From the NCBI GenBank assembly GCA_902778645.1, contig CACYYO010000002.1, positions 1,511 to 65,510 on the forward strand: a DNA stretch of 64,000 nucleotides. The letters are read 5' to 3'. The notes under the pieces are model-generated. The model made no database searches. It was not told the DNA's origin and worked only from the letters and a program-made list of their open reading frames with translations. The position numbers and the translations under genes are program-made. The first letter of the stretch is position 1, and every line of letters begins with the position of its first letter. This stretch comes from an uncultured Rhodospirillales bacterium. Lineage in GTDB: Bacteria; Pseudomonadota; Alphaproteobacteria; RF32; CAG-239. Positions 1,226 through 59,716 of the stretch are shown piece after piece.

Positions 1226-2671
1226 CTAAGCATCAAGCGCCCGACGTAAAGCATCAACGCTTTCTGCCAAAGAGGCATCTTCAACAATCAGCTCCTCAAC
1301 CTTTCTAACCGCATGCATGACGGTTGTATGGTCGCGGTCAAACTTGCGCCCGATTTCCGGCAAAGAGCGAGAAGTTAACTGTTTTGCCAAATACATAGCA
1401 ATTTGACGAGGACGAGCTACTGTGCGTGCCCGGCGAGAAGACTGCATTTCTTTAACGGAAATATTAAAGTACTCAGCAACCTTCTTTTGAATCTCATCAA
1501 TCGTTGTTCTTTTATCATAAGAACGAAGCATATCTTTTAAGACATCTTGTGTCATATCCAAAGTGATTTCGTTATTCGAAAGCAACTGAGAATGAGCAAT
1601 CACACGACGCAAAGCCCCTTCCAATTCACGAATATTAGAAGTAATCTTTTGCGCTAAGAACTCAGATACTTTTTGCGGTAACTCAACCCCTAATTGACGC
1701 GCTTTGTTCTCTAAAATACCGATTCTTAAATCAAAGTCCGTCGGGTGAATATCAGCAACCAACCCACAGCTTAAACGGGACTTTAAGCGAGCCTCGATTC
1801 CCTCTAAATCGGATGGAGATTTATCGGCGGAAATAATAATCTGACGACCTTCTTCAATCAAAGAATTAAAGGTATAGAAAAATTCTTCCTGAGTGGTGTC
1901 TTTGCCGCCCATAAACTGAACATCATCAACCATCAAAACATCGACAGAACGGAATTGCTCCTTAAAAGCGGTCGTGTCTTTATAGCGTAAAGCACGAACA
2001 AACTTGTACATGAACTTTTCTGCAGACAGATAAACAATATTACGGCTCGGATCTTGTTGTTTGATATGCCATGCGATGGCGTGCATCAAATGCGTTTTTC
2101 CTAAACCGACCCCCGAGTATAAAAACAGAGGATTAAAAGAAACATTTCTCGATTCCGCAACCTTGCGAGCGGCAGCATAAGCAAACTCATTTGTTTTGCC
2201 GACAACAAAATTATCAAAAGTATATTGCGGATTCAAAGGAACGGATAAAGATTGATCCTGATTGGCTAAAAACTCATTATTGTTTGCCAACAAAGAATTA
2301 ATACCACTTTGATAAATATTAGCCGGAGACGGACTTGTCGAAATCTTTTTCAGTAAAGAACGGCAAGATTTTGTATAAAGCCCATGCCCTTCTTCTTGAA
2401 CAGCTTGAACAATAAAATTGATATTTTTTATCTCAGGATTCTTTTTCTCCCAAATTTTGTGGATTCGATCAGAGTAGTGAGTAATAACCCAGTTGCGCAT
2501 AAAGCGGGTCGGTACACAAATATTCATTGTACCGTCATTAAATGTACCGGGCGTCAAAGGTTTCAACCAGCTGTCAAAAGCGACATCACCGACTTCGTTT
2601 TTTAATTGGCTGCAAATCTGATTCCATTGGTCTTGTACGGATTCTAAATCATTGATTGCCTGTTCAGCCAT
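1226..2671 (-). CDS. dnaA: chromosomal replication initiator protein DnaA
   Basis: 481-aa ORF with an AAA+ Walker A motif (GVGLGKTHLMHAIAWH), sensor motifs and a C-terminal DnaA-box-binding HTH domain (TSRSLPEIGRKFDRDHTTVMHAVRKV). Confidence 0.97.
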   Translation of the reverse strand: MAEQAINDLESVQDQWNQICSQLKNEVGDVAFDSWLKPLTPGTFNDGTMNICVPTRFMRNWVITHYSDRIHKIWEKKNPEIKNINFIVQAVQEEGHGLYTKSCRSLLKKISTSPSPANIYQSGINSLLANNNEFLANQDQSLSVPLNPQYTFDNFVVGKTNEFAYAAARKVAESRNVSFNPLFLYSGVGLGKTHLMHAIAWHIKQQDPSRNIVYLSAEKFMYKFVRALRYKDTTAFKEQFRSVDVLMVDDVQFMGGKDTTQEEFFYTFNSLIEEGRQIIISADKSPSDLEGIEARLKSRLSCGLVADIHPTDFDLRIGILENKARQLGVELPQKVSEFLAQKITSNIRELEGALRRVIAHSQLLSNNEITLDMTQDVLKDMLRSYDKRTTIDEIQKKVAEYFNISVKEMQSSRRARTVARPRQIAMYLAKQLTSRSLPEIGRKFDRDHTTVMHAVRKVEELIVEDASLAESVDALRRALDA

Positions 2672-3029
2672 TTTCTCTCCCCATTCAAAAGATAATTAAT
2701 ACAAATATAATCGTGGTTATATTCTGTTTATGCCAATCGGATTCTTTATAGTGATATAACCTCATTTTAATCTGACCGACATGAACATATTCCATATTCT
2801 TCAACTTCTGTTTGGAATTAGGTTTCTCAAATACCTCTTTATAATAAAGAACGATTCTTTGTCGTACCTTTCAAAATACCATATCTTTGAATATTTCTAA
2901 AACACAACACTCTCGCCGAAAAATTAAGAAACATCGTATGTTATCTTCCATCAACGGCAACAGTCGTTCTAGCTTTACAAAAAGTTCCCCGTATTCGAGA
3001 GCAAAGATAATAACAATAATAATATACTC

Positions 3030-3228
3030 GGATAATCATTCGTAACACCTGTAAGATAACACAATTATTAACTTAACGGCTTTAAGAAAAACTCCTGAAC
3101 AATCATCCCTTAAAGTGATTCGGATAACCATCCGTATCACCTGTAAGATAACACAATTGTTAATCTAACAGCTTTAAGAAAAATTCCTGAAGGATCATCC
3201 CTTAAAGTGATTCGGATAATAAACTGAA
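3030..3228. repeat. About 92-bp direct tandem repeat, 2.1 copies, in the dnaA upstream region. Each unit begins with a DnaA-box-like TTATCCGAATCAC when read on the minus strand.
   Basis: Unit 1 (about 3031-3122) and unit 2 (about 3123-3214) are roughly 90% identical: ggataa(t/c)cat(t/c)cgta(a/t)cacctgtaagataacacaatt(a/g)ttaa... The motif gtgattcggataa recurs at 3024, 3116 and 3208 with a 92-bp period. Confidence 0.6.
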
Positions 3229-16439: not shown

Positions 16440-16850
16440 GTGGCAACCTTTTTTTGTTGCTGCCGTGCCTTCATTCATCGGTCACGCGGCACTTCTTTTT
16501 TATTATTGCCATCCCGACCCTACTTTTGTCACTCCGGTGCTTGACACCGGAAACGAAGTGAGCAAGCTGCTTTAGCTGTCGCGCTCCATCCACAGGAATA
16601 AAGCCATATCCCTATGGATACCCGAATCAAGTTCGGGTATGACAGAAAGAGGAGTTCCTTATTATCCCTCCCCTGCATGAGGGGAGGTTAGGAGGGGTAT
16701 TATCCTCCCGACCGAAGCGGAGGGATCTGCGCACGACCTCTCCCCCCAACCTTGTCTTTGTCACCACTCTCAGAACTCTCGACTGCGCTCGAGGTGACAC
16801 CCGTTCTCCCCAAAAAAGAATTGTAACAATTTTATGAATATTAACCAATA
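16440..16850. repeat. Cluster of short palindromic repeat elements. It holds family C (ccacag..aagccatatccctatggatacccgaatcaagttcgggtatgaca) and family A (cctcccctgcatgaggggaggttaggaggggt).
   Basis: Segment 16578-16645 is near-identical to 21001-21060. Segment 16665-16725 shares the CCTCCCCT-N-AGGGGAGG-ttRGgaggggt palindrome with 32351-32391 and 33642-33685. No ORF is supported in this region. Confidence 0.6.
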
Positions 16851-16940
16851 ATTATCGATTCCTGACTTAAGATATATTCACTTAAGTGGAAAAATATGCT
16901 ATACTGAGCAGAATGTTACGGTAGCAAACGAGACTAAAAA

Positions 16941-17588
16941 ATGTACATTTGGATGATATTAGCGACTTTTATGGTGATGCTGGCGGCATATAATTTATCG
17001 CCACGTGCAGATATTGCACATGTCCAAAATGCCCCTCAGGCGGAGGCAGCAATCACCAGGTTTTTGGCTTGGCACAAAGGAGCGGAAAAATACGCCATAG
17101 CTTATAAAGGTGCTTTATCAGAATCAGAATCACTAGGATGTGCTGTGCTCAATGATTACCTGCCGATGGGCTACATCTGTGTGGATAACGAATCTTCCTC
17201 AACAATCTATTACTTAAACCCGGCAACAGGAGAATCTCCTGAAGAAGGTGTTCTTGGTAAATACTTTGTTGTTTCATACCAGCATGTTCCTGACAAATGG
17301 TTGAATGTTGCGACCAATAAAATTTTAGGTGATTTTTACCATGCATTAGCCAGTCGTGTTCCGGCGGGGGTAACTTGCGGGATAATGGTTGCGGAAAATG
17401 AAGAGTTTTTATCCAATTGCGAAGAAACCCCAAAAAAAGACCGCGATAATAAACTATGTAGCAATTACGTTGTTGAGGGGGCGACGGCGCTGGATAAATC
17501 CATTCCACCGAAAGCTATTAGTGATTTGGAAGATGAATGCACTGATTCAGACAAAGCTCCATGTATTGTTTGTGTAAAAAAGATCTGA
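16941..17588 (+). CDS. Hypothetical membrane-anchored Cys-containing protein, co-oriented with the downstream prepilin-like giant gene
   Basis: 215 aa with an N-terminal hydrophobic helix MYIWMILATFMVMLAAYNL. Its stop lies 14 nt before the next gene's start. Confidence 0.5.
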   Translation: MYIWMILATFMVMLAAYNLSPRADIAHVQNAPQAEAAITRFLAWHKGAEKYAIAYKGALSESESLGCAVLNDYLPMGYICVDNESSSTIYYLNPATGESPEEGVLGKYFVVSYQHVPDKWLNVATNKILGDFYHALASRVPAGVTCGIMVAENEEFLSNCEETPKKDRDNKLCSNYVVEGATALDKSIPPKAISDLEDECTDSDKAPCIVCVKKI

Positions 17589-17602
17589 TAGGAGGACGAG
17601 CC

Positions 17603-20600
17603 ATGAGGAAAATAAACAGCAAATCCGAATTAGGTAGTATGATGATTGAGGCGATAGCCATGCTGGGCTTGATTGCCATGGTCACCCCTGTCCTCTACAA
17701 AAAATCAGCGGAGCGAACCTCAGAGTTGCAGGATATCAACACTGCCGGAGAAATTCGTTCGATTATCAAGGCGGTTGATGACTACGTTGGCGCCAATTAT
17801 AACAAAATTGTCGGAAAAGGAGATGGAAACGAAGATCGGACAGTCACAACCGGATGTACCGGAAAGACGGAAATTAACGGAAGTGATGTGGAACATAACG
17901 AGATAACATATGATATGGGTGATGGTGATTATAAAGAGATTCCTCTGGGACACCTTTGTCAGTTTCTCCCTTATGGTGTCTTGGATGGGGAAAACCACGT
18001 AAGAGCCTCAAAGTTATTCTCAAACTACAAAATTGTCTTAAAACAGAAAGGAGAAGTAACAGAGGACGATCCTAAAGCCCGACCGGTTATAACCTCTTTT
18101 GTGGTGACCGATCCGTACAATGAATTACCGATTCTCCGTGCTTCAAGCATATCTTCTATGATTGGTGGTAATGGTGGTTATGTTACAGAAAAACCGGATA
18201 AAAGCCTTGAAATAAGCGGTAATATGGGCATATGGGGCGTCGATAAACCTCAAGAGGAGCTTGGTGTCGAGGTTAAAAAGCATGCAATTGTTGCCGCCTC
18301 TATAGAGGGAATTTCTTCCCAAACCGCCACAGTCGAGGCTGGTGAGGATGACAGTGATAACTTCTTATATCGTACACCTCAAGAGGATAAAGAGTTAAAT
18401 ACGATGAGCACGACTCTTTTCATGGGGAGCACGGGTGAGGGTGGTGAGCTCCACGATATCGTCAATATCAAAGGTTTAGCTGTCGGGGCTGAGGACACGG
18501 GCAACCACGCGCTTTATATCGCCGGCGGGGACATCCAGATTGGTAACGATGCCGCCGTAAATATCAGTGATAGCGGTGATATCACGGTGACGGGCAACAT
18601 TAAGGCTGACGGAACTTTAGACATAGGTGGTACCGCAACTTTCGGCTCGAATGATGAAATTACATTAGCTGATGGCGACGGTACATTTACTGGTGCTTTA
18701 TCAGCGCTAACCGGTGATTTTGGCGGTGCTGTCACCATCAATGCAGGTGAAGGAGAAGTTAAAAAAACCACCATCAACCAACCGCTGGAGGTGGTGTTCG
18801 AAGATCAAAACGGAACAAAATGTATTTCTGTGGGCGATAACGACTGTGCTCTTAAGGTAACCGGTGGAGCCTCTATCAGCGGCAACCTGCATGTCGGACA
18901 TATTTTCAACGCTGAAGATTTACATGCACGGAATACATTAACTGTCGGTGGAAACGCTGCAAATAAGGGAAAATATTTGAGAGTTGCAGAAGGCGAATTT
19001 AAATTTGGTAATTTAGGAGAGAATGAAACCGGTACACCCACCATCTCAGCCACCAACACAACCTTTGATGTCACAGCCTCCGGTAATGATGGTCATGCGA
19101 CCCTCACACATGGCAATAACAGCCTCAATGTCAACGCTTCCGGTGTCACCATGACCGGTGGTTCTGGGAGTGGCAGCGATGCAGTAAGCGCCACTATCAC
19201 TGCCAGTGCTGCAGGAAATGTCAGTATAAACTCTGACGCTGGCAAAACCATTAAAATGAACACCGATGACTTCGTCGTAACAAATACCACCGATGGTGGC
19301 ACGATTACATCTGACGTAAACAGTTTCAAAGTCCGCCCGACGAACACAACTGGCACGAGTACCAATGGTTATTTTGAAATCAAACATAATGGCACAGCGG
19401 ATGGTAATTATAATGAGCATATGGTTGTTGATAAAATGGACACTTATTTTACAGGAACAAATGCAGCTAAATCTAATGTCTACCTCCGCGATTCGGTCTT
19501 CAAACTGCAAAATAGCGACAACAATGACGTCGTTCGTATTGGGCAAACAGCAGATTCTAATGCGCAAATCGACATCTCCGGTGAAGGCGTAACTATGGCT
19601 GATGCCCCGAATGGCAATAAAGTCTTACGTGTTAATTTGTCTTCTTCTCTGGCTGCACATGATACTAGCTATCCCATCTATATCCGCAAAGGTGCCATTG
19701 AGATGACAGCAGGTGAAAATGAGCCGAGACCCTACATCCAAACTGAAAAACTTATTTCTACCAAAACGGTTCCTGATTTGCTGGATGATAATGGAGGGCA
19801 TTCTGGTGCGGGAATTCACTACGCTGTCGACCCGGCATATACATCCATCATGCATGATATCAAACTCACCACGCGTGGCGGTGCTCGCCTGAGCGATATT
19901 TTGCCTGATTTTATCAACAAAGGTATCTATGTCGTCGACAACACCGCCCCAGCCTTAGGAGTAGATTGCTCAATAGATGGGGAGACATCACACGGGAGAT
20001 GGCTCGACAACAAGAGCGATAGCAATCCAGGATATTTTAACATGTCTGTAGCAGATAAACTTGCCGTAATTCCTTGCGTAGCGGCGGATAAAAAAGTGAG
20101 CCCATGGGCGGGGTATGTTCCGATTCCAACGTGTCCGCACGGATATTCGGCGGTTATAACGGTCGGTTTAGCCAATGCCGCTATGGCACAGGGCGGTCAT
20201 CTAGCTCCAAAGACTAAGTGGGGAGGGAGTGGAAACACTCTTGAGGATTTAAAAGAAGCACCGGATAGTAACAGTGGCGCTTATAGCGGGTCAACCACAA
20301 GCCCCGAAGATATTGCTCCGGGGAATCCAGGGGCTCCGTACGCCCTGTATAATCAAAAGAATACATGGCTGAAATCAAGTATTCACTTATACCCGACAGC
20401 AGCAGAACCTCAGGGTTGGGATGTCTTGCTGGGATTTGTCTACCCATATGAATGGTATAAAAGCTTTATACCCCAAGCAGGAAGGAATCTTGATTATTTT
20501 GATTACCAAGGAGAAGATGACGTCTCTATCGGTTCAGAAACAGGATTTAATGATCAACTGATTTGGAATATGTTCCCGGTCTATACCAAAACCATTGAGA

Positions 20601-20848
20601 GTTACGCAACCGTTTATTGCTACTTTAACCGTAATGGTAGTCCGTGTAACTCATGGGATAAAGATGGCAATTGCACAGGGTATGATACGGGTCATCCTTA
20701 TTTCAATAGCTCTCTCGTTGATAAATACTATAACCAGCTGAAAAACTTCAGAGAGCGTCACTCAAAGACCGGCGGTGCGAACGATGGAGACAATCCGTAC
20801 ACAGGCCGTCTGAATAACGATGATGCTGATTTCAAAGGATACTGGTAA
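17603..20848 (+). CDS. Giant protein of about 1080 aa with a type IV prepilin-like (class III) signal, and large G/T/N/D-rich beta-repeat and Cys/aromatic C-terminal domains. Putative pilin-like adhesin.
   Basis: Strong SD (aggagg) and ATG at 17603. N-terminus MRKINSKSELG|SMMIEAIAMLGLIAMVTPVLY has a basic leader ending in Gly, Glu at +5 and a hydrophobic helix of about 20 aa. The ORF track start at 17561 is probably too far upstream. Confidence 0.6.
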   Translation: MRKINSKSELGSMMIEAIAMLGLIAMVTPVLYKKSAERTSELQDINTAGEIRSIIKAVDDYVGANYNKIVGKGDGNEDRTVTTGCTGKTEINGSDVEHNEITYDMGDGDYKEIPLGHLCQFLPYGVLDGENHVRASKLFSNYKIVLKQKGEVTEDDPKARPVITSFVVTDPYNELPILRASSISSMIGGNGGYVTEKPDKSLEISGNMGIWGVDKPQEELGVEVKKHAIVAASIEGISSQTATVEAGEDDSDNFLYRTPQEDKELNTMSTTLFMGSTGEGGELHDIVNIKGLAVGAEDTGNHALYIAGGDIQIGNDAAVNISDSGDITVTGNIKADGTLDIGGTATFGSNDEITLADGDGTFTGALSALTGDFGGAVTINAGEGEVKKTTINQPLEVVFEDQNGTKCISVGDNDCALKVTGGASISGNLHVGHIFNAEDLHARNTLTVGGNAANKGKYLRVAEGEFKFGNLGENETGTPTISATNTTFDVTASGNDGHATLTHGNNSLNVNASGVTMTGGSGSGSDAVSATITASAAGNVSINSDAGKTIKMNTDDFVVTNTTDGGTITSDVNSFKVRPTNTTGTSTNGYFEIKHNGTADGNYNEHMVVDKMDTYFTGTNAAKSNVYLRDSVFKLQNSDNNDVVRIGQTADSNAQIDISGEGVTMADAPNGNKVLRVNLSSSLAAHDTSYPIYIRKGAIEMTAGENEPRPYIQTEKLISTKTVPDLLDDNGGHSGAGIHYAVDPAYTSIMHDIKLTTRGGARLSDILPDFINKGIYVVDNTAPALGVDCSIDGETSHGRWLDNKSDSNPGYFNMSVADKLAVIPCVAADKKVSPWAGYVPIPTCPHGYSAVITVGLANAAMAQGGHLAPKTKWGGSGNTLEDLKEAPDSNSGAYSGSTTSPEDIAPGNPGAPYALYNQKNTWLKSSIHLYPTAAEPQGWDVLLGFVYPYEWYKSFIPQAGRNLDYFDYQGEDDVSIGSETGFNDQLIWNMFPVYTKTIESYATVYCYFNRNGSPCNSWDKDGNCTGYDTGHPYFNSSLVDKYYNQLKNFRERHSKTGGANDGDNPYTGRLNNDDADFKGYW

Positions 20849-20854
20849 AACTTG

Positions 20855-21075
20855 CCGATTCTTCACCGTCATTACCCGGCTTGACACCGGAGTCCACAGT
20901 AAAGCAGCCATATTCCTGTGGACTCCGGCTCGGAGGCCGGAGTGACAGAAAAGAAAAAATTCCTCCCCTTTTCTTCACCGTCATTACCCGGCTTGACCGG
21001 GTAATCCACAGGAAAGCAGCCATATCCCTATGGATACCCGAATCAAGTTCGGGTATGACACCGAAGAAAGAAAGC
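20855..21075. repeat. Family C palindromic repeat elements. The 5' module ttcttcaccgtcattacccggcttgac occurs twice, joined to two different 3' modules.
   Basis: 20858-20960 is a perfect long palindrome (accggagtccacag...ctgtggactccgg; ccggctcggaggccgg). 20972-21060 matches 16578-16645 and partly 28128-28200. Confidence 0.65.
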
Positions 21076-21970: not shown

Positions 21971-22051
21971 TGCCGTTGCGGCCTGTCTTTTATTATGGTC
22001 ATTCCGGCCTGTTTTTTTTATTGTCATTCCGGCCTCCGAGCCGGAATCTCC

Positions 22052-26861: not shown

Positions 26862-27140
26862 GGAAACAGCCTCTCTGTCATCCTGAGCGAACACCTCATT
26901 TACCGTCATCCTGAGGAGTTCCTCTCTTTTATGTCATCCTGAGGAGTTCCGAAGGAACGACGTCAGGATCTCCGAACGCCAGTTCGGTAAAAAAGGAATC
27001 ATTATTATGGTAGGACTTCGTCCTAAGATCTTGACGTCACTACGTTCCTCAAGATGACAGGACATAATGAAGTCCCCTGAGCGAGAGAACCGAGCGTCAG
27101 GATCTCCTTTACAGCAGTTCGGTAAACCCTTATAAAAGGA
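26862..27140. repeat. Array of family B palindromic elements (gtcatcctgag(c/g)...ttccgaaggaacgacgtcaggatctcc...gttcggtaaa)
   Basis: Several nested or tandem copies, with hairpins gttcc-gaa-ggaac and gacgtc. A near-identical copy lies at 33677-33760. The distal end supplies the SD (aaaaggaaac) for the GIY-YIG gene. Confidence 0.6.
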
Positions 27141-28124: not shown

Positions 28125-28200
28125 GTCATCCCTTTCTCTTTATCGTCATTACCCGGCTTGACCGGATAATCCACAGCAAAGCAGCCATAAACCGGATGTA
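28125..28200. repeat. Family C palindromic element copy
   Basis: cgtcattacccggcttgaccggataatccacagcaaagcagccata matches 20972-21020 and 16578-16610. Confidence 0.5.
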
Positions 28201-28976: not shown

Positions 28977-31900
28977 TTATTTCTTGCCTTCTTCCGTCTT
29001 TTTGGTATCAGTACATTTGCCTGAAATCTCATCAAATACGCCGCCCTGAGCAGCACACGCCTGTTGAGCAGCGGCACTTATCTGGTTTCTCTTGTTTTCA
29101 TTACTCTGGAAATCAAAATTGCCGGATGATTGTTGATACCTTGCTTCATCATACCCTTCGGTTACGCCAGTTAAAACTCCAAACAGAGTCCCCATGGCCT
29201 GTGCGCCATCACCCAATCCGAGCATACCACCCAAGCCTTCTCCTTCATTACGACCGGCCTCTGCCATAGCAGCGGTATTGCTGGCACCTGCAGCAGCCTC
29301 TGCTACCTTTTCCATACCGGTCAAAATCGTAGAACCGCCGCCTTTTCCGTCATTGTTCATCCAGTTATTAAAACCTGTTTGCTCGCTTTTAACCTGCTGC
29401 TCCAAATTTGCCAAAGCATTCTTTTCATTCTCGCTGCAAACCGAGGTCGAACATTTTTTCAGCAATTCTTCATATGTCTGGTTCAATACGCCGCGATATG
29501 CTTCTTGAGCCCTTGATGACCCCATATCTTGTACATTATTAGAAATTGCGCTGCCTGCTCCGGCCAAAATATTAGCCTCTACAGCCGTATTCCCGACCAT
29601 TGTTGCAAGAGCAGTTGTTGCATCTGTGACGTTAGAGAAGAAGTCACTGGCGCCGTCTTTTGCCGCCTTATAATTTGCTTCCGCCTGATCAACAACGGCT
29701 TGAGCGCTTTCCTCTCCGGATCTTGCATACGCCAAGTCACGCTCAGCCTGAGCAACCAGATTATCCCCTTCTCTTGTCGCCTGATCCAAAGCATACTGTG
29801 CTTGGTTTACCAGATTATCCCCTTCTCTTGTTGCCCGATCCAAAGCATATTGTGCTTGTGTGACTGCATTATTGGCATTATTATAATCAGCTTTTGCCGT
29901 ATTAAGTGCCTGATTGGCCTGAGATAAAAGATATTCGTCATCAGTAATATCTTTGCGCAGGTTTTCCATATCAGCACGAATCTCTTCTTCGGTTTTGTTG
30001 CCGTACTTGTTTGTGAGGTCCTGATATTCCTGACGATATTGTTTGGCATCCGCTTCTGCTTGCGCCATTTGCTCTTTAAGCTTGGCAATTTGCGCCGCCT
30101 CTGCCGGACGATTAGGGTCTAACTGATTAATTTGCTCTTGTAATCTGGCAACTTCATCATCTTTGGCTTTAGCTGCATCTAATAAATCATCTTTTTTGAG
30201 ATATTTATTCATATCTTCCAATTCTTTGGCGTGTTGAGCGCGTTGCGCTTGCAAGTTGTCAATATTTTCTTGGGCCTGATTAACAGCAGCCAATTTTTCT
30301 TCAGCCTCTTTCTTTGCAGCATCTAATTTATCTTGCTGTTCTTTGACAAGAGCATCTCTTTGTTTCTTCGCTTCATCAACACCTTTTTGTGCCTCATCAA
30401 TAAGATTATCTCTCTCTCTCTGTGCTGCGTCTAAAGCTGCCTGTTTTTCAGCAACATTGGCTTGCGCCTGATTCAAAATCTCGTTAGCTGTATTCAAATC
30501 CTGCTGTGCGGCACGGACGTAATCATTTGTGCCATTCCAAGCATCGCTAAATGCTTTCGCGGCGTCAATAGTGCCTTCCACGTAGTCTTTTACTGATTGA
30601 ACGCCCACAGCAGTATTACGAATAATGTTAAGACCATTCTTTATTGCATCAACGCCATCCATGAAGCTCCACCCTTTACCATCTGCCGCCGCTTTTAAGT
30701 CTGCCATATTAACATCCGGACATAAATTAGGGTTATTGCTGCATTCTTGAATCATTTGTTCCAATTCTTGCGGAGACATTGATGAGTAGGACGACGATCC
30801 GCCTGATCCGCTTGTAAAGTACTGCGCATGGTTACCATTAGGCAAGAAGTCTCCATATTGCAATGTAGACCCGTCATTATAAACGATTTCCTCAATCAAA
30901 GCGGTTGTCATAGAGAGAATAAATAGACCGATACCGATATTGGCCAACTGCTTAAAATTAATTTTACCGATAATTGCGCTATAAGCAAAGGCAATCATTC
31001 CGAAACCGGCTAAAATATAGACAATAGAACGTAAATCAGCGACAATAAGTGTAATTCGGCAAGCAAGGTATTGAAAGATACCAAACCCGCCACTTTGGGA
31101 CATATTGTCTTTAGCCTCTTTACACGTCGGCTTTGCCAGTGCGGCATTTACCTGTTTTTGAATATCAGTACTAGTTCCTGCTTTATCTCCATCTCCGATT
31201 CCTCCAGTAGAATCTGTATTTAAACCGTAGCCACAAGTTCCTTCTTCAATACAAGAATATTCACCGGAACGATTTAGAGCTTCTTGATAAGCTTTTGCTT
31301 CTGCCTGACATTCAGCAGACCCTTTTTCAAATTGACAATCATCATAAGCTTTTTTAGCCTGATCAAGTTTCTGCTGAGCTTGTCGTGCTTCTGCTGCTTT
31401 TGCCGCTGCCACACGATCTTCTCGAGCCTTTATAATACATTCTGAGATTGGTCCACCACATTTTTCAAAAGCAGCATGCTCTTCAGCTGTCGCATCAACA
31501 GAAAAAGTACAAGCTCTAAGAGTGGTACTATAAACCATTCCACCGGAACAAGAATTTTGGTTAACTTGTAAAGCCGTAGAATCAGCATTATTTTGCGCAG
31601 TTGCATTTTTATTATTAGCTTCAGTAGCCGCCTTTGCTTTTTTTCCGGCTTTTTTTGCTGCGTTTTGATAAGCATTATAAAGGTCCTTCAATCGAGAACA
31701 AACAGCATCATTCGGATTTTGTTTACAAGTTGCAATGGCGGCATCATATGCGGCCTCAGCTTCTTGTGCTGCTTTCTGTGCTGCCTCATTTTCTGCATTT
31801 GCTTTATCCGCTTTTTCTTGAGCGCTGTTAGCTTTTTTACTGGCTTTATCAGCATTACTATTGTCTTTTTTACATTGCGAAAGAGCAGATTTTGCATTAC

Positions 31901-32273
31901 GGAGCTGCGTTGCCATGCCTTCTTGACATTGCTTTAAAGCTGTTTGAGCGTTTGTTAAAGCGATACTCACATGCTTTGAAGCATCCATGCCACCGGAAGT
32001 ACATTTTTTATACTCCGCTTTAATGGTGTTATATACATCACAAACAGAATCCAACTTATCTTGAGCCGAAGTAACAGCTGCCTGTTGCGTTTGACAATTA
32101 CCATAAGCATTATAAGCAGAGACAGCACTCTGCGCATTTGCACAATTACCATAAGCCTCATCCCTGGTAATATCTTCAATATCAGTTTTCGCATTAGCTT
32201 CATTAACAGACAACAAAAATCCTAAGCACAGTAGGAATGAAACACCTCTCATCGCTTTATTAATCATTTTCAT
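28977..32273 (-). CDS. Giant secreted coiled-coil protein with an embedded VirB2/TrbC-like (T4SS pilin) double-TM hairpin
   Basis: Signal peptide MKMINKAMRGVSFLLCLGFLLSVNEANA. Cys-rich N-terminal domain and A/Q/K-rich coiled coils. The core LRSIVYILAGFGMIAFAYSAIIGKINFKQLANIGIGLFILSMTTALIEEIV aligns with the two small paralogs downstream. Internal duplicate NQAQYALD(R/Q)ATREGDNLV. Confidence 0.6.
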   Translation of the reverse strand: MKMINKAMRGVSFLLCLGFLLSVNEANAKTDIEDITRDEAYGNCANAQSAVSAYNAYGNCQTQQAAVTSAQDKLDSVCDVYNTIKAEYKKCTSGGMDASKHVSIALTNAQTALKQCQEGMATQLRNAKSALSQCKKDNSNADKASKKANSAQEKADKANAENEAAQKAAQEAEAAYDAAIATCKQNPNDAVCSRLKDLYNAYQNAAKKAGKKAKAATEANNKNATAQNNADSTALQVNQNSCSGGMVYSTTLRACTFSVDATAEEHAAFEKCGGPISECIIKAREDRVAAAKAAEARQAQQKLDQAKKAYDDCQFEKGSAECQAEAKAYQEALNRSGEYSCIEEGTCGYGLNTDSTGGIGDGDKAGTSTDIQKQVNAALAKPTCKEAKDNMSQSGGFGIFQYLACRITLIVADLRSIVYILAGFGMIAFAYSAIIGKINFKQLANIGIGLFILSMTTALIEEIVYNDGSTLQYGDFLPNGNHAQYFTSGSGGSSSYSSMSPQELEQMIQECSNNPNLCPDVNMADLKAAADGKGWSFMDGVDAIKNGLNIIRNTAVGVQSVKDYVEGTIDAAKAFSDAWNGTNDYVRAAQQDLNTANEILNQAQANVAEKQAALDAAQRERDNLIDEAQKGVDEAKKQRDALVKEQQDKLDAAKKEAEEKLAAVNQAQENIDNLQAQRAQHAKELEDMNKYLKKDDLLDAAKAKDDEVARLQEQINQLDPNRPAEAAQIAKLKEQMAQAEADAKQYRQEYQDLTNKYGNKTEEEIRADMENLRKDITDDEYLLSQANQALNTAKADYNNANNAVTQAQYALDRATREGDNLVNQAQYALDQATREGDNLVAQAERDLAYARSGEESAQAVVDQAEANYKAAKDGASDFFSNVTDATTALATMVGNTAVEANILAGAGSAISNNVQDMGSSRAQEAYRGVLNQTYEELLKKCSTSVCSENEKNALANLEQQVKSEQTGFNNWMNNDGKGGGSTILTGMEKVAEAAAGASNTAAMAEAGRNEGEGLGGMLGLGDGAQAMGTLFGVLTGVTEGYDEARYQQSSGNFDFQSNENKRNQISAAAQQACAAQGGVFDEISGKCTDTKKTEEGKK

Positions 32274-32350
32274 GGCACATCCTCCTAATAGTCCTTAGAA
32301 TTTTATATTAATAATTTCCCGTCTTTGTTCTTTTTTTTGCCCCTTTATAA

Positions 32351-32391
32351 TTCCTCCCCTTTTCAATAGGAGAGGGTCAGGAGGGGGTCTG
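32351..32391. promoter_or_regulatory. Family A palindromic element (ttcctccccttttcaataggagagggtcaggagggggt) in the promoter region of the giant VirB2-like gene
   Basis: Shares the CCTCCCCT-N-AGGGGAGG-N-GGAGGGG architecture with 16665-16706 and 33642-33685. Confidence 0.45.
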
Positions 32392-32403
32392 ATAACACCT
32401 TGT

Positions 32404-32925
32404 TTATCCGCCTGTCTTCAAGCTGTCGGTTATCATATCTGTCGTAATAACGGTATCCTCAACCATGTAGTTAATAATCGCCGCTGTTGCCGCAATTACA
32501 AACAACCCGATCAGAATAGCCGTCAACCATTTATAATTAATGTTTCCGAAAATGGAGCCGATAACCACCGCAATAATCCCAAAACCGGAAACCGCATAAA
32601 TAATCTCTCGCAAGCCGGTAAAGATTTTGCCGCCATGCGCCGCCAAATCACCAAATAAGGGACCCGAACTCCCACTCCCATGACCAAAATGAATAACGTT
32701 GGACATTCCTGAAGCAGCTGTTCCTACCACTTTTTTCGCTGCCTCCACAGCTTCAGGACTAGGATCTTCCGCCCACGAGTTCGTTGCAAATAAAATTGAA
32801 GAACACACAAACACCGCCAAGCTGGCAACAACCAATTTCTTAAAATTTATGTGCAACATTCTAAATATTTCCCTAAAAGAAACAAAAGGAAGGCGTTGTG
32901 AGCAATTTGTAAATAAATTTTTCAT
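32404..32925 (-). CDS. VirB2/TrbC-like T4SS pilin family protein (paralog 2, 173 aa)
   Basis: Signal peptide (LAVFVCSSILFATNSWA), then LREIIYAVSGFGIIAVVIGSIFGNINYKWLTAILIGLFVIAATAAIINYMV, two hydrophobic helices separated by a K/W loop. Confidence 0.6.
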   Translation of the reverse strand: MKNLFTNCSQRLPFVSFREIFRMLHINFKKLVVASLAVFVCSSILFATNSWAEDPSPEAVEAAKKVVGTAASGMSNVIHFGHGSGSSGPLFGDLAAHGGKIFTGLREIIYAVSGFGIIAVVIGSIFGNINYKWLTAILIGLFVIAATAAIINYMVEDTVITTDMITDSLKTGG

Positions 32926-32964
32926 AACAAACCTTCCTTTCTTTTTCAGTTAAATTAACATATA

Positions 32965-33327
32965 CTATTTTGTTGTACTGCTCTGGAAGGTATCACCCAT
33001 TGTACCTTCACCAGTACCGGCATAACCACTGGCACCTGTTGCGTATTCAACGATAGCACCGGCTGCCGCCAACAGGGCTAAACCGACTGCCAAGCCGGCA
33101 AACCATCCCCATTTAACCTTACCGATAATCGCTTGGTAAGCAATACCAACCAAACCGAAACCACCGATAACGAAGGTAATGGTTTTGACATGTTGGAACA
33201 CATTCATTGCTTTTCTCTCTGCAACCGTCATTAACGGTGAAGCTTGCGCAAAAGCATCAAGTGATACCAATGTCAAAACAAATGCCCAAGAGCAAATTGT
33301 CCAAATATTTTTTTTCAAGAAACGCAT
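32965..33327 (-). CDS. VirB2/TrbC-like T4SS pilin family protein (paralog 1, 120 aa)
   Basis: Signal peptide ending AFAQA, then ITFVIGGFGLVGIAYQAIIGKVKWGWFAGLAVGLALLAAAGAIVEYATG. Same architecture as Agrobacterium VirB2 (a GxFG helix, a K/W loop, a G-rich helix). Confidence 0.65.
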   Translation of the reverse strand: MRFLKKNIWTICSWAFVLTLVSLDAFAQASPLMTVAERKAMNVFQHVKTITFVIGGFGLVGIAYQAIIGKVKWGWFAGLAVGLALLAAAGAIVEYATGASGYAGTGEGTMGDTFQSSTTK

Positions 33328-33629: not shown

Positions 33630-33760
33630 TCTTTTTCTTCTGTCACTCCTCCCCTTGGTTTCAAGGGGAGGTTGGAAGGGGTTTTGTCATCCTGAGGAGT
33701 TCCGAAGGAACGACGTCAGGATCTCCTTTACGTTAGTTCGGCAAAAAAGGAATCATTACA
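33630..33760. repeat. Composite of a family A palindrome (33642-33685) and a family B element (33677-33760), lying between divergent virB2-like and porin genes
   Basis: tcactcctccccttggtttcaaggggaggttggaaggggtttt, followed by gtcatcctgaggagttccgaaggaacgacgtcaggatctcctttacgttagttcggcaaaaaaggaatcatt. The latter is near-identical to 26920-27000. Confidence 0.6.
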
Positions 33761-59077: not shown

Positions 59078-59716
59078 TTGAATGATGTTAAAACAGTCGA
59101 TGTTCCATCAGCTGATACACCAAACCCGTATTTGCAACCGCAAAATACTGTTTTCGGTCAACCAACGCAATTTGCACAGAATAATATGCAAGCGAATGAT
59201 ATGTATAATGATTATCCAAATTTAAGAGATGATAAAAGGGATTTTTTCAAATCTGCAGTTGAAAGCGTCGTAAAAGCGATCCCTTCGTCTTTTGAACGCA
59301 ATAATCCTTTAACGCAATCATTAGGGGCGGCAAGAGACTTGGGTGAAAACTATATAAATATGGTCAATGCCAATCTTAAAAGTTCTAAGGATATGTCTAC
59401 CCAAGGAACAACCTCGGATAATTATTACCATTGCTTAGGTAATTATAATGCAGCTAGTCGGGGAGATTATGGAGCTAAAACAGCGGAAATTATTGGTAAT
59501 ACACGAGAAATAGCTGATTGGGGAATAAATTGGCTTTTTAAGGATAAACCAATTTCACAAGCAAATGCTGATTTCAAAAATGATAGAGCCGTTAACTTAG
59601 ATGGTCGGAATATGGCTCAAAGCGGGCAATATAACTCAGCATGGGATGCTTGTGAAAAATATCGCCCTAAACAATACGATCCTAACGAGCGCTTGTATTA
59701 TTACCATAAATATTAA
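59078..59716 (+). CDS. Serum amyloid A (SAA)-like domain protein
   Basis: NYYHCLGNYNAASRGDYGAKTAEIIGNTREIADW parallels the vertebrate SAA core [33 protein letters not shown]. The tail ...YRPKQYDPNERLYYYHKY parallels SAA ...HFRPAGLPEKY. Confidence 0.55.
   Translation: MNDVKTVDVPSADTPNPYLQPQNTVFGQPTQFAQNNMQANDMYNDYPNLRDDKRDFFKSAVESVVKAIPSSFERNNPLTQSLGAARDLGENYINMVNANLKSSKDMSTQGTTSDNYYHCLGNYNAASRGDYGAKTAEIIGNTREIADWGINWLFKDKPISQANADFKNDRAVNLDGRNMAQSGQYNSAWDACEKYRPKQYDPNERLYYYHKY

What the first reader, a model, noticed from the sequence alone, without database searches (positions are those of the whole stretch)
16440..21075. Repeat-bounded islet encoding a roughly 1080-aa protein with a type IV prepilin (class III) leader
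ORF 17603-20848 begins MRKINSKSELG|SMMIEAIAMLGLIAMV: a short basic leader ending in Gly, Glu at +5 and a hydrophobic helix of about 20 aa. This is the hallmark of prepilin peptidase substrates (pilins and pseudopilins). What follows is more than 1000 aa of G/T/N/D-rich repeats and a Cys/Trp/Tyr-rich C-terminal domain. That is far larger than structural pilins and more like a pilus-tip adhesin, but with its own pilin anchor. It is preceded by a co-oriented 215-aa membrane protein. Both sides are flanked by clusters of palindromic repeat elements (16440-16850 and 20855-21075), suggesting a mobile or recombination-prone islet. No pilus biogenesis genes (PilB/C/D or Tad) are nearby.
Basis: partly seen in the sequence, partly recalled or inferred. 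Interest (0 to 1): 0.7.

Follow-up and report, generated by a model that had tools for sequence, protein, structure and literature searches.

The report
Giant PilV-like pilin with leaderless partner
The window carries a conserved two-gene operon of uncultured gut Alphaproteobacteria that encodes a 1081-residue protein whose front end is a type IV pilin of the PilV (pilus-tip adhesin) kind. The gene just upstream encodes a small pilin-like partner with no leader peptide. This is an unannotated variant of a known kind of protein, not a mobile island.

Summary
ORF 17603-20848 encodes 1081 aa beginning MRKINSKSELG|SMMIE, preceded by a co-oriented 215-aa protein and flanked by palindromic repeats.

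The prepilin reading is supported, but not by the proposed test: N_methyl/TIGR02532 profiles do not hit. The supporting evidence is:
- Gly(-1), Glu(+5) and the whole alpha1 helix are conserved in 120 homologues.
- An AlphaFold model of residues 1-252 (pLDDT 91) matches mainly type IV pilins, type IVb first.
- The family N-domain aligns with PilV, the tip adhesin of IncI-plasmid type IVb thin pili (hhalign 98%, E 2e-13). Two members pass Pfam's Shufflon_N cut-off.

The upstream protein is a distant paralogue of that pilin module, but it starts directly at Met1 with no leader and no Glu5.

The pair is a strictly linked operon in at least 287 species-level genomes of gut Alphaproteobacteria. It sits at the same chromosomal site in the nearest relative. 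It evolves much faster than its neighbours.

The flanking repeats are dispersed REP/MITE-like elements, so "mobile islet" is not supported.

No assembly genes lie nearby. A prepilin peptidase exists in related genomes but could not be checked in this one. The C-terminal 800 aa match nothing known.

The parts
16941..17588 (+). Partner gene (215 aa). It is a leaderless, pilin-like bitopic protein that starts MYIWMILATF at Met1. An in-frame TAA lies two codons upstream. It has one TM-like segment (aa 1-19). R22, D24 and the C-terminal Cys pair C200/C208 are invariant.
   Evidence: A homologue lies directly upstream on the same strand in 83 of the 86 sequences searched, and where both genes were located (82 loci) the gap to the large gene is 2-40 bp. 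Alignment A5 of 56 sequences. hhalign against the large protein's N-domain gives prob 86%, E 5e-6. Reciprocal HMM hits are exclusive to each other. No Pfam, NCBIfam or PDB match.
17591..17596 (+). GGAGGA ribosome-binding site, 7 nt before ATG 17603. It supports the 1081-aa start rather than ATG 17561.
   Evidence: Sequence. Homologues begin at the equivalent Met. P0001 is 100% identical over 1081 aa.
17603..17635 (+). Leader peptide MRKINSKSELG (11 aa, basic, ends in Gly-1). The predicted prepilin-peptidase cleavage site lies between 17635 and 17636.
   Evidence: Leaders vary in length and sequence across 120 homologues but all end in an invariant Gly. This matches the class III signal definition in PMC10191384.
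17636..17794 (+). Alpha1 helix of the mature protein (aa 12-64). It begins SMMIE with Glu at +5, then a hydrophobic alpha1N with T17-P18-x-x-Y21, then a charged alpha1C (LYKKSAERTSELQDIN).
   Evidence: E16, A17, L21, L23, T28, P29, Y32, K34, E37, R38, E41 and D44 are invariant. AF2 predicts a helix at 2-64. It is the only TM-like segment in the protein. The T-P-x-x-Y spacing is the same in PilV.
17603..18427 (+). PilV-like (Shufflon_N-type) type IVb pilin module, aa 1-275. It consists of alpha1 plus a beta-sheet head, with the motifs YLPYG, RASSISSMIGGNGGYV, GIW and LYRx7LNxMxTxLxMG.
18428..19672 (+). Variable, G/T/N/D-rich (44%) beta-strand region, aa 276-690. It is probably an elongated beta-helix or fibre-like stalk and is the least conserved part of the protein.
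19673..20848 (+). Conserved C-terminal domain (aa 691-1081, plus the stop codon). It is rich in Cys, Trp and Tyr, has 6 Cys, and ends in a nearly invariant Trp. It has no known relatives.
   Evidence: invariant columns. No Pfam hit in 56 members at E<=1. No PDB hit at E<=10. AF2 pLDDT is 80-93 for residues 770-870 and 920-1010.
19853..19927 (+). Ultra-conserved motif HDIKLTTRGGARLSDILPDFINKGI (aa 751-775), 97% mean column identity across 120 homologues. Its function is unknown. It is predicted with low confidence in isolation, which suggests a partner-binding or processing site (inference).
   Evidence: pLDDT is below 50 for residues 747-767. It is used as a family-specific search pattern.
16440..16850 (.). 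Cluster of small palindromic (REP/MITE-like) elements in the Lon-partner intergenic region. It includes 16588-16644, which is 95% identical to 21004-21060.
   Evidence: The same elements occur in the relatives L101 and L102, partly at other positions.
20855..21075 (.). Two tandem palindromic elements of about 100 nt with terminal inverted repeats (TTCTTCACCGTCAT...ATGAC). They lie between the stop codon of the large gene and the convergent NUDIX gene, and probably act as a terminator or insulator (inference).
   Evidence: RNA fold -91.7 kcal/mol, z = -9.3. Further copies at 22022-22045, 28126-28189 and 32349-32364.
16877..16905 (+). Best promoter-like site upstream of the operon (TTCACT-17-TATACT with an extended TG), inside a block that is 90-94% identical to relative L101 (92% over 354 nt by blastn) and about 97% identical to L102.
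   Evidence: This is a consensus match only and has not been shown to function.

Best explanation
The locus is a vertically inherited two-gene operon of uncultured gut Alphaproteobacteria. It is not an island.

What the two proteins are:
- The 1081-aa product is a giant modular type IV pilin of the PilV lineage.
- It has a class III (prepilin) signal, a 53-residue alpha1 helix and a type IVb pilin head, about 275 aa in all. This part is homologous to the constant region of the IncI-plasmid thin-pilus tip adhesin PilV.
- That module is fused to a variable beta-rich stalk of about 415 aa and a conserved, disulfide-containing C-terminal domain of about 390 aa with no known relatives.
- The upstream 215-aa product is a diverged paralogue of the pilin module that lacks both the leader peptide and Glu5.

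Proposed mechanism (inferred):
1. Both proteins insert into the inner membrane through their N-terminal helices.
2. The lineage's stand-alone A24 peptidase, which has no methylase domain, removes the 11-residue leader after Gly11.
3. The two pilin modules pair through alpha1 and the head, as minor-pilin tip complexes do. The Glu5-less partner would act as the capping or priming subunit.
4. The stalk and C-terminal domain are presented outward as a ligand-binding adhesin. This exposure would explain why both genes diverge far faster than their neighbours.

Shown: the homology, the fold, the linkage, the distribution and the fast divergence. Inferred: cleavage, pairing, filament or tip location, and the adhesin role.
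For: Signal and fold:
- The class III signal is conserved, with a variable leader, in 120 homologues.
- There is a single TM-like segment.
- The AF2 N-domain model has pLDDT 90.9, with a helix at 2-64 followed by a beta sheet.

PilV homology:
- hhalign prob 98%, E 2e-13.
- PF04917 is above its cut-off in two members.
- tblastn hits pilV in 1198 plasmids, E down to 4e-10.
- phmmer with E. coli PilV hits 11 family members, best E 6e-14.
- Shared motifs are visible.

Partner:
- A homologue is found in 83 of the 86 sequences searched, directly upstream on the same strand wherever both genes were located (82 loci).
- hhalign against the N-domain gives prob 86%, E 5e-6, with reciprocal exclusive HMM hits.
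- It is leaderless, with a stop codon two codons upstream of Met1 and MY.W at the start in nearly all of the 83 partner sequences, a few of which have a short extension upstream.

Peptidase:
- An A24 gene lies 2.2 kb from the pair on the L006 contig.
- The family has 413 clusters, with both catalytic Asp invariant and no methylase domain.
- Ca. Scatocola faecigallinarum has both the peptidase and the large protein (L023).

Extracytoplasmic location: 10 Cys, and a DsbA gene is a neighbour in 41 loci.

Core gene, fast evolving:
- It is present in 287 species-level genomes.
- Gene order with relative L101 is identical.
- Flanking proteins are 81-98% identical, against 50% for the partner and 63% for the large protein.
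- Nucleotide identity is 82-92% in the flanks and 46-70% inside the pair.
- The same trend holds in 149 species pairs.

Modular pilins and tip subunits lacking Glu5 are established concepts (PMC8179133; PMC10191384).
Against: - The window protein itself hits no pilin profile: PF07963, TIGR02532 and PF04917 all miss it, and it has no direct tblastn hit to pilV. The link to PilV is at family level.
- No major pilin, assembly ATPase, platform protein or secretin is found in the 64-kb window or in 2.04 Mb of sequence from about 80 related genomes. However, that sequence samples the same neighbourhood in each genome.
- A prepilin peptidase could not be shown in this genome.
- The peptidase is adjacent to the pair in only one lineage.
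- The +1 residue is Ser/Thr/Gly, not the usual Phe/Met/Leu.
- A leaderless pilin-like partner has no described precedent that I know of.
- Nothing identifies a ligand. The C-terminal domain has no relatives.
Confidence: 0.6

Rival explanations
1. Exapted pilin module used only as a membrane anchor. The N-terminal helix would serve as an uncleaved or cleaved signal-anchor, holding a large periplasmic or envelope-spanning protein and its partner in the inner membrane. No type IV filament machinery or surface exposure would be involved, for example in an envelope-bridging or cell-wall-associated structure.
For: - No assembly ATPase, platform protein, secretin or major pilin is seen near the pair in any of about 80 genomes or in the window.
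- The A24 peptidase of the lineage stands alone among housekeeping genes.
- The partner has no leader at all.
- The protein ends in a nearly invariant aromatic residue.
Against: - Invariant Gly-1 and Glu+5, and PilV-type motifs through the whole head domain, are hard to explain for a mere anchor.
- The lineage keeps an A24 peptidase with intact catalytic Asp residues, which needs substrates.
- Divergence much faster than the neighbours suggests outside exposure.
- No AsmA/TamB or other envelope-bridge profile hits.
Confidence: 0.22
2. One reading: a mobile or horizontally acquired islet bounded by repeats, carrying an adhesin.
For: - Palindromic repeat clusters lie on both sides, with one 57-nt copy shared between the two sides.
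- GC content is slightly higher in the pair (0.44-0.47) than in the neighbours (0.41-0.43).
- The locus is a divergence hotspot with conserved flanks.
- Short-read assemblies break at the repeats (L001).
Against: - The same repeat families occur at several other intergenic sites in the window.
- In relatives they occur at different positions.
- The pair is present in at least 287 species-level genomes.
- Lon-pair-NUDIX synteny is identical in relative L101.
- No integrase, transposase or tRNA gene lies at the borders.
- There is no shufflon: no rci-type recombinase and no significant inverted repeats inside the gene.
Confidence: 0.03
3. A flagellum-associated envelope component. The pair would belong functionally to the divergently transcribed fliL-fliM-DUF6468-FlbB-like operon next to it in most species.
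For: - In about 58 of 82 loci the pair lies head-to-head with fliL, fliM, a DUF6468 protein, an MgtE_N/FlbB-like protein and an unknown 850-1064-aa protein.
- FliL and the unknown large protein evolve about as fast as the pair.
Against: - The adjacency is absent in the window's own clade and in L002, L006 and L033, although the pair is intact there.
- In L057 the pair is inverted relative to both flanks. This fits plain synteny.
- No known flagellar protein carries a class III signal (my own knowledge).
- The homology is to a pilus adhesin.
Confidence: 0.07
4. A mating adhesin, as PilV is for IncI plasmids. The protein would mediate cell-cell contact for a chromosomal type IV secretion or conjugation system, such as the VirB2-like genes 8-12 kb downstream in the window.
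For: - It is homologous to PilV, which determines recipient recognition in liquid mating (product names; the role is from my own knowledge).
- Three VirB2/TrbC-like genes lie at 28977-33327.
Against: - No T4SS genes lie next to the pair in any of about 80 related loci.
- There is no shufflon.
- The pair is a lineage-wide core gene, not plasmid-borne.
- The VirB2-like genes are separated from it by housekeeping genes.
Confidence: 0.05

Closest known systems
PilV (Pfam PF04917 Shufflon_N), minor pilin and tip adhesin of the type IVb thin pilus of IncI1/IncK-type conjugative plasmids (R64 type)
   Same: - Class III signal with Gly-1 and Glu+5.
- Identical T17-P18-x-x-Y21 spacing in alpha1.
- Shared head motifs: YLPxGF, R...IA...G..GGYV, G.W, LYRx7LNxMxTxIxMG.
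- hhalign prob 98%, E 2e-13 over 176 columns.
- A constant N-terminal pilin module followed by a variable C-terminal part.
   Different: - PilV is about 415-480 aa; this family is 830-1440 aa, with an unrelated, conserved C-terminal domain.
- PilV varies through an rci shufflon. Here there is no recombinase and no sfx-like repeats; variation is by sequence divergence.
- pilV sits in a complete pil operon directly after the peptidase pilU. Here the pair is an orphan with no machinery nearby.
- It is chromosomal, in Alphaproteobacteria, not plasmid-borne in Enterobacterales.
- The window protein itself is below the PF04917 threshold.
CofB / TcpB, large tip-located minor pilins that initiate type IVb pilus assembly (ETEC CFA/III, Vibrio cholerae TCP)
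   Same: - A pilin module followed by beta-repeat and beta-sandwich domains.
- They are described as modular pilins presented at the tip (PMC8179133).
   Different: - There is no sequence-level similarity.
- CofB and TcpB are about 400-520 aa and are encoded inside their pilus operons.
- Trimerisation and pilus initiation have not been tested here.
Modular type IV pilins in general (Raynaud et al. 2021, PMC8179133)
   Same: An N-terminal pilin 'carrier' module with a grafted functional module. They are expected to be tip-exposed and to bind ligands.
   Different: - That catalogue was built from IPR012902 hits with a recognisable extra domain, and its largest case was 860 aa.
- This family hits neither the Pfam (PF07963) nor the NCBIfam (TIGR02532) N_methyl model, so an IPR012902-based census would probably have missed it (inference: InterPro itself was not run). 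It has no recognisable extra domain and is larger.
- It also comes with a leaderless pilin-like paralogue.
Glu5-less capping minor pilins (GspK, PilK/PilX-type) of tip complexes
   Same: The partner protein has a pilin-like alpha1 and an alpha-beta region, lacks Glu5, and is encoded next to another pilin-like protein. Tip complexes are capped by a subunit without Glu5 (PMC10191384).
   Different: Known capping pilins are still made with a cleavable class III leader. The partner begins at Met1 of the hydrophobic helix. Its similarity to pilins is only indirect: hhalign 86% to the large protein's N-domain and 32% to PilV. No structure was predicted for it.

Membership tests
Type IV pilin / prepilin (class III signal peptide proteins) | Hydrophilic leader peptide ending in Gly or Ala | tested here: met
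   The leader is MRKINSKSELG. Gly is invariant at -1 in alignments A3 and A4, while leader length and sequence vary. The definition is taken from PMC10191384.
Type IV pilin / prepilin (class III signal peptide proteins) | A hydrophobic stretch of 20-25 residues after the cleavage site, usually with Glu at +5 | tested here: met
   The mature N-terminus is SMMIEAIAMLGLIAMVTPVLY. E16 (= +5) is invariant in 120 sequences. It is the single TM-like segment, residues 9-33.
Type IV pilin / prepilin (class III signal peptide proteins) | 'Lollipop' fold: an alpha1 helix of about 53 residues packed on an antiparallel beta-sheet head | tested here: met
Type IV pilin / prepilin (class III signal peptide proteins) | Match to the N_methyl profile (PF07963 / TIGR02532, which are member signatures of IPR012902) | tested here: not met
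   No hit for the full protein or for its first 66 aa at E<=10. None of 31 family N-termini hit at E<=10.
Type IV pilin / prepilin (class III signal peptide proteins) | Processing by a prepilin (A24) peptidase encoded in the same genome | tested here: inconclusive
It is present on the same contig as a family member (L006) and in the same species as another (Ca. Scatocola faecigallinarum). There are 413 related clusters in such MAGs. Cleavage itself cannot be tested here.
Type IV pilin / prepilin (class III signal peptide proteins) | Incorporation into a filament built by an extension ATPase, a platform protein and (in diderms) a secretin | not testable with these tools
   No such genes are found in the window or in 2.04 Mb of related loci. 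Whole genomes could not be read.
PilV / Shufflon_N (PF04917) | Score above Pfam's gathering cut-off for PF04917 | tested here: not met
   The window protein has no hit at E<=1. Among 31 N-termini, one scores E 0.067. Two full-length relatives do pass: P0064 at 37.6 bits and P0036 at 28.9 bits, against a cut-off of 27.5.
PilV / Shufflon_N (PF04917) | Homology of the N-terminal constant region to bona fide PilV | tested here: met
   hhalign of family against PilV gives prob 98%, E 2e-13 over 176 columns. tblastn of P0064 hits only pilV, in 1198 plasmids. phmmer with E. coli PilV hits 11 family members.
PilV / Shufflon_N (PF04917) | C-terminal segments switched by an Rci recombinase acting on sfx repeats (a shufflon) | tested here: not met
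   No recombinase is found in the window. There are no significant inverted repeats within or after the gene apart from the REP-like elements.
PilV / Shufflon_N (PF04917) | Encoded within a type IVb pil operon (pilL-pilV), directly after the peptidase pilU | tested here: not met
   The plasmid operon is shown. None of its other components has a homologue in the window or in the related loci.
Tad pseudopilins (TadE/TadF/TadG; PF07811, PF13400) | Match to TadE-like or TadG-like N-terminal profiles | tested here: not met
   No such Pfam hit at E<=10 in 31 N-termini. The small +1 residue and the methylase-less peptidase resemble the Tad type, but only in a general way.
Genomic island / mobile element | Integrase or transposase, attachment-site repeats unique to the borders, patchy distribution, and insertion relative to close relatives | tested here: not met
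   There are no mobility genes. The border repeats are dispersed elsewhere. The pair is present in 287 species-level genomes. Gene order is the same in relative L101.
REP/MITE-like intergenic palindromic elements (flanking repeats) | Short, highly structured palindromic units present in many intergenic regions of the genome | tested here: met
   Fold z-score -9.3. Copies occur at six or more intergenic sites in the window and in relatives at shifted positions. Genome-wide copy number was not measured.

The most novel reading that the evidence does not exclude
The pair is a minimal, machinery-poor derivative of a type IVb pilus. A leaderless pilin-like subunit and a giant PilV-like pilin would need only a stand-alone prepilin peptidase to build a short envelope-anchored fibre or adhesin, without a dedicated major pilin, ATPase or secretin. 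That would be a new kind of type-4-filament-derived appendage, specific to gut Alphaproteobacteria. It would also include the first pilin-fold protein made without a class III leader.
Probability: 0.15. Interest if true: 0.8.

Novelty: new variant of a known kind. Interest (0 to 1): 0.5.

Why it matters
- **Gap in annotation.** The family is large: 794 clusters at 50% identity match at E<=0.001 and 235 at E<=1e-30, and at least 287 species-level genomes carry it. The window protein and the N- and C-terminal parts of dozens of relatives match no Pfam, NCBIfam or PDB sequence; only two relatives reach a Pfam cut-off (PF04917), and the few source names seen all read 'hypothetical protein'. It occurs in uncultured Alphaproteobacteria that are common in human, ruminant and poultry guts.
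- **Larger modular pilins.** Recognising the family as PilV-like extends the known size range of modular pilins from 860 aa to more than 1400 aa. Since the N_methyl (PF07963/TIGR02532) models miss the family, censuses based on IPR012902 probably miss it too.
- **Candidate surface determinant.** The pair is a concrete candidate for host, mucus or cell-cell adhesion, or for a phage receptor, in an unstudied gut lineage. Its fast divergence makes it a likely strain-level surface marker.
- **Two testable oddities.** Specialists could test the obligatory leaderless pilin-like partner, and the fact that the pair and its peptidase lie apart from any assembly genes.

Tried and rejected
Searches that found nothing useful:
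- Pfam and NCBIfam on the whole protein and on its first 66 aa gave nothing.
- Pfam on 31 N-termini and on 56 C-terminal domains gave no consistent weak hits.
- PDB profile searches with the full-length, N-terminal, partner and C-terminal alignments were not significant.
- Foldseek of the full AF2 model against the PDB gave only noise, because the model is multi-domain with pLDDT 66.6.
- tblastn of the window's own N-domain against plasmids found no hit. The PilV link needed a relative and profiles.

Attempts to find a prepilin peptidase or pilus machinery:
- For this genome, the A24 HMM against the window in six frames was negative.
- Exact look-up of P0001 returned only a 4.3-kb contig.
- Accession-number proximity via cluster members was uninformative, except for the Ca. 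Scatocola species match.
- A Walker-motif and class-III regex scan (over about 1.6 Mb of loci) and a phmmer scan with all IncI pil-operon proteins (over 2.04 Mb of related loci plus the window) found only PilV-family and A24 hits.

Searches limited by the tools:
- The representative-library search with the N-domain profile listed only family members in its top 150, so remote relatives stayed hidden.
- Short hits in that list (188-402 aa) looked like truncated or frameshifted fragments, not stand-alone small pilins.
- Literature searches for the lineage (RF32 / CAG-239 / Scatocola) gave nothing on pili.

Ideas considered and dropped:
- An S74 intramolecular-chaperone cleavage site at the conserved RLSD motif: the spacing is wrong and Pfam does not hit.
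- An AsmA/TamB-like lipid bridge: no profile hit, and the stalk is hydrophilic.
- A shufflon: there are no repeats and no recombinase.

Full report
**1. Observation**

- The ORF listing reports a 1095-aa ORF at 17561-20848 and a 215-aa ORF at 16941-17588 on the same strand.
- The ATG at 17603 lies 7 nt after GGAGGA. It gives 1081 aa starting MRKINSKSELGSMMIEAIAMLGLIAMV.
- This form is identical to a protein called in public assemblies (P0001), and it matches the starts of all homologues.
- The middle third is 44% G/T/N/D and the last third is 10.7% C/W/Y, against 23% and 3.2% in housekeeping proteins.
- There are no true repeats at the DNA or k-mer level.
- The intergenic regions on both sides hold palindromic elements. 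Positions 16588-16644 and 21004-21060 are 95% identical, and 20859-20922 and 20971-21034 are 88% identical.
- These elements are absent from shuffled sequence. The right-hand block folds with z = -9.3.
- Pfam annotation of 46 ORFs of the window, the main non-overlapping ones, shows a housekeeping neighbourhood that begins near dnaA. It includes Lon, NUDIX, RsmI, DnaX, RecR, DnaJ, DnaK, AccA/D and S1, and has no pilus biogenesis gene.

**2. The N-terminus is a real prepilin-type signal on a pilin fold**

PF07963 and TIGR02532 do not hit the protein, its first 66 residues, or any of 31 family N-termini, even at E<=10.
- The comparative evidence is nevertheless strong. A protein search found 168 relatives of 830-1300 aa.
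- In the 120 best relatives the leader varies in length and sequence. The Gly at -1, the Glu at +5 and most of the following 45 residues are invariant or nearly so. The consensus is G|(S/T/G)(L/M)(M/L)(I/V)EA.AML.LI..VTP.LYKK.AERT.ELQDIN.
- This is the definition of a class III signal (PMC10191384).
- It is the only TM-like segment in the protein.
- An AlphaFold model of residues 1-252, built on 35 sequences, has pLDDT 90.9 and pTM 0.82. It shows a helix at 2-64 packed on a beta sheet.

**3. Closest known relative: PilV**

- Two family members pass Pfam's gathering cut-off for PF04917 (Shufflon_N). This profile is the constant N-terminal region of PilV, the tip adhesin and minor pilin of the type IVb thin pilus of IncI-type plasmids. 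P0064 scores 37.6 bits and P0036 scores 28.9 bits, against a cut-off of 27.5.
- tblastn of P0064 against 72,556 plasmids hits 1198 records. All twelve records listed fall on annotated pilV genes, from query residue 11-12 to about 360, with E down to 4e-10.
- A profile-profile comparison of the family N-domain with three PilV sequences gives probability 98% and E 2e-13 over 176 columns. The alignment runs from the leader through the head domain.
- E. coli PilV hits 11 family members directly by phmmer, best E 6e-14.
- Shared motifs are visible by eye: T17-P18-x-x-Y21 in alpha1, YLPxGF, R...IA...G..GGYV, G.W, and LYRx7LNxMxTx(I/L)xMG.
- The window's own protein is too diverged to hit PilV or PF04917 directly. 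The assignment therefore rests on family-level evidence.

**4. The rest of the protein**

- Conservation is bimodal. The pilin module (1-275) and the C-terminal domain (691-1081) are conserved, and the stalk (276-690) is variable.
- One stretch, HDIKLTTRGGARLSDILPDFINKGI (751-775), is 97% conserved.
- The C-terminal domain has no Pfam hit in 56 members and no PDB hit.
- The full-length AF2 model is poor in the stalk. Fold searches with it are uninformative.
- Weak sub-threshold hits suggest a beta-helix or fibre-like stalk, but this is not established. They are to phage spike and tail-fibre chains, Bactofilin and DUF2345.
- Ten cysteines fit an extracytoplasmic location, as does a DsbA gene in the neighbourhood of 41 related loci.

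**5. The upstream gene is an obligatory pilin-like partner**

- A scan of one genome per species found 287 stretches encoding a relative. All 78 loci kept are MAGs, almost all labelled as uncultured Alphaproteobacteria or proteobacteria (one, L026, is labelled Lactobacillaceae), from human, deer, sheep, rabbit and chicken guts where the title names a host. The labels include 'uncultured Azospirillum sp.' and Candidatus Scatocola (taxonomy).
- In 83 of the 86 sequences searched, a homologue of the 215-aa protein is present. Wherever both genes were located (82 loci) it lies directly upstream on the same strand, with a gap of 2-40 bp.
- Nearly all begin MY(I/L/V)W..LATF at Met1, and a few have a short extension upstream. 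In the window an in-frame stop lies two codons upstream, so there is no leader, no Gly and no Glu5.
- Its profile matches the large protein's N-domain with probability 86% and E 5e-6, covering alpha1C plus the YLPxGF motif.
- In a search of 1624 neighbourhood ORFs, the weak hits listed for each of the two HMMs, outside its own family, were members of the other family.
- The match to PilV is weak, at 32% probability.
- It also has an invariant Cys pair near its C-terminus.
- I read it as a diverged pilin-module paralogue. By analogy with tip complexes capped by a subunit without Glu5, it may pair with the large protein.

**6. Not an island, but a divergence hotspot**

- The flanking repeats belong to small palindromic element families that also occur at 22022-22045, 28126-28189 and 32349-32364. 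A second family occurs at 26929, 27095 and 33682.
- In relatives the same elements sit at partly different positions.
- The nearest relative (L101) has the same gene order over 15 kb: TPR, Lon, partner, large gene, NUDIX, a 105-aa protein, UPF0102, RsmI, and an LppC-like protein.
- Between the two genomes the flanking proteins are 81-98% identical. The partner is 50% identical and the large protein 63%.
- Nucleotide identity is 82-92% outside the pair and 46-70% inside it, with conserved stretches at alpha1 and around the 751-775 motif.
- The same holds across the main clade. When UvrB is about 90% identical, the large protein is 57% identical and the partner 58%.
- FliL and an unknown neighbouring protein evolve about as fast.
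- The locus is therefore vertically inherited and fast-evolving, as expected for exposed envelope proteins. It is not mobile.

**7. Machinery**

- No ATPase, platform protein, secretin or major pilin is found in the window. None is found in 2.04 Mb of related loci when searched with all proteins of an IncI pil operon or, over about 1.6 Mb of those loci, with motif scans.
- These loci sample the same neighbourhood in each genome, so whole genomes remain unchecked.
- A prepilin peptidase (PF01478) lies 2.2 kb from the pair in one lineage (L006).
- Its family has 413 clusters of 226-240 aa. Those that carry a source name are called 'prepilin peptidase' (most as '[Alphaproteobacteria bacterium]') or a near equivalent.
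- It has both catalytic Asp residues invariant and no methylase domain.
- It stands among housekeeping genes near groES/groEL.
- Candidatus Scatocola faecigallinarum has both the peptidase and the large protein (L023).

**8. Other context**

- In about 58 of 82 loci the pair is head-to-head with a fliL-fliM-DUF6468-FlbB-like operon.
- This adjacency is missing in the window's clade and in three other lineages. In L057 the pair is simply inverted.
- I treat this as synteny, with a small probability of a functional link.

**9. Verdict**

- The finding is a genuine, unannotated family of giant PilV-like modular type IV pilins with a leaderless pilin-like partner. It is conserved in gut Alphaproteobacteria.
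- It is a new variant of a known kind. Modular pilins and PilV are known (PMC8179133).
- What is new is the size, the novel C-terminal domain, the partner, and the orphan status.
- The 'mobile islet' reading is rejected.
- The function as a tip or surface adhesin is inferred, not shown.

Noticed in passing
window 28977-33327 (-): Three consecutive genes each carry a TrbC/VirB2-like transmembrane hairpin. The 120-aa product hits PF04956 (E 2.5e-9). A 173-aa protein and a 1098-aa coiled-coil-rich protein have the same hairpin embedded (in the large one, around aa 415-460). No other T4SS genes were seen nearby.
   Followed up: partly
window 59078-59716 (+): A 212-aa ORF (TTG start) matches the eukaryotic Serum amyloid A family (PF00277, E 1e-13, 52 bits against a cut-off of 30.8). 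This is unusual for a bacterium.
   Followed up: no
window 35540-39463 (-): A 1307-aa protein has no Pfam hit. It has a Pro/Lys/Glu-rich repeat tract (PVKPKEPKQ), visible as DNA repeats at 36415-36585.
   Followed up: no
window 3028-3211: Two tandem 92-bp direct repeats (89% identical) lie in the intergenic region about 350-550 bp upstream of dnaA (1226-2671, minus strand). They may be related to the replication origin.
   Followed up: no
window 26929-26973, 27095-27126, 33682-33745: A second family of palindromic intergenic elements is present (GTCATCCTGAGGAGTTCCGAAGGAACGACGTCAGGATC). It is distinct from the elements flanking the operon, so the genome carries several REP/MITE-like families.
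   Followed up: partly
L091 3005-6199 (-), and equivalents in about 58 loci: An unknown 850-1064-aa protein with no Pfam hit is conserved at the end of the fliL-fliM-DUF6468-FlbB-like operon. It evolves as fast as the pilin pair and has a weak sub-threshold NCBIfam hit to the T3SS chaperone SctY (26 bits against a cut-off of 70).
   Followed up: partly
L013-L032 and others, just downstream of the large gene (for example L091 13181-13942): A signal-peptide protein of about 250 aa with no Pfam or NCBIfam hit follows the pair on the same strand in the main-clade loci inspected; the family occurs in 45 loci but sits elsewhere in L038 and L047. It may be a third operon member in that clade. It is absent from the window.
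   Followed up: partly
L101 3954-6391: In the closest relative, the Lon-like gene is called as two ORFs (131 aa and 640 aa), against one 812-aa ORF in the window. This could be a frameshift, a pseudogene or an assembly error.
   Followed up: no
L089/L090 9352-11412: In one lineage the stand-alone A24 peptidase is flanked on the same strand by two small proteins with no known domains (195 aa and 224 aa), followed by rpsA. They were not examined for pilin-like features beyond NCBIfam, which found no hit.
   Followed up: partly
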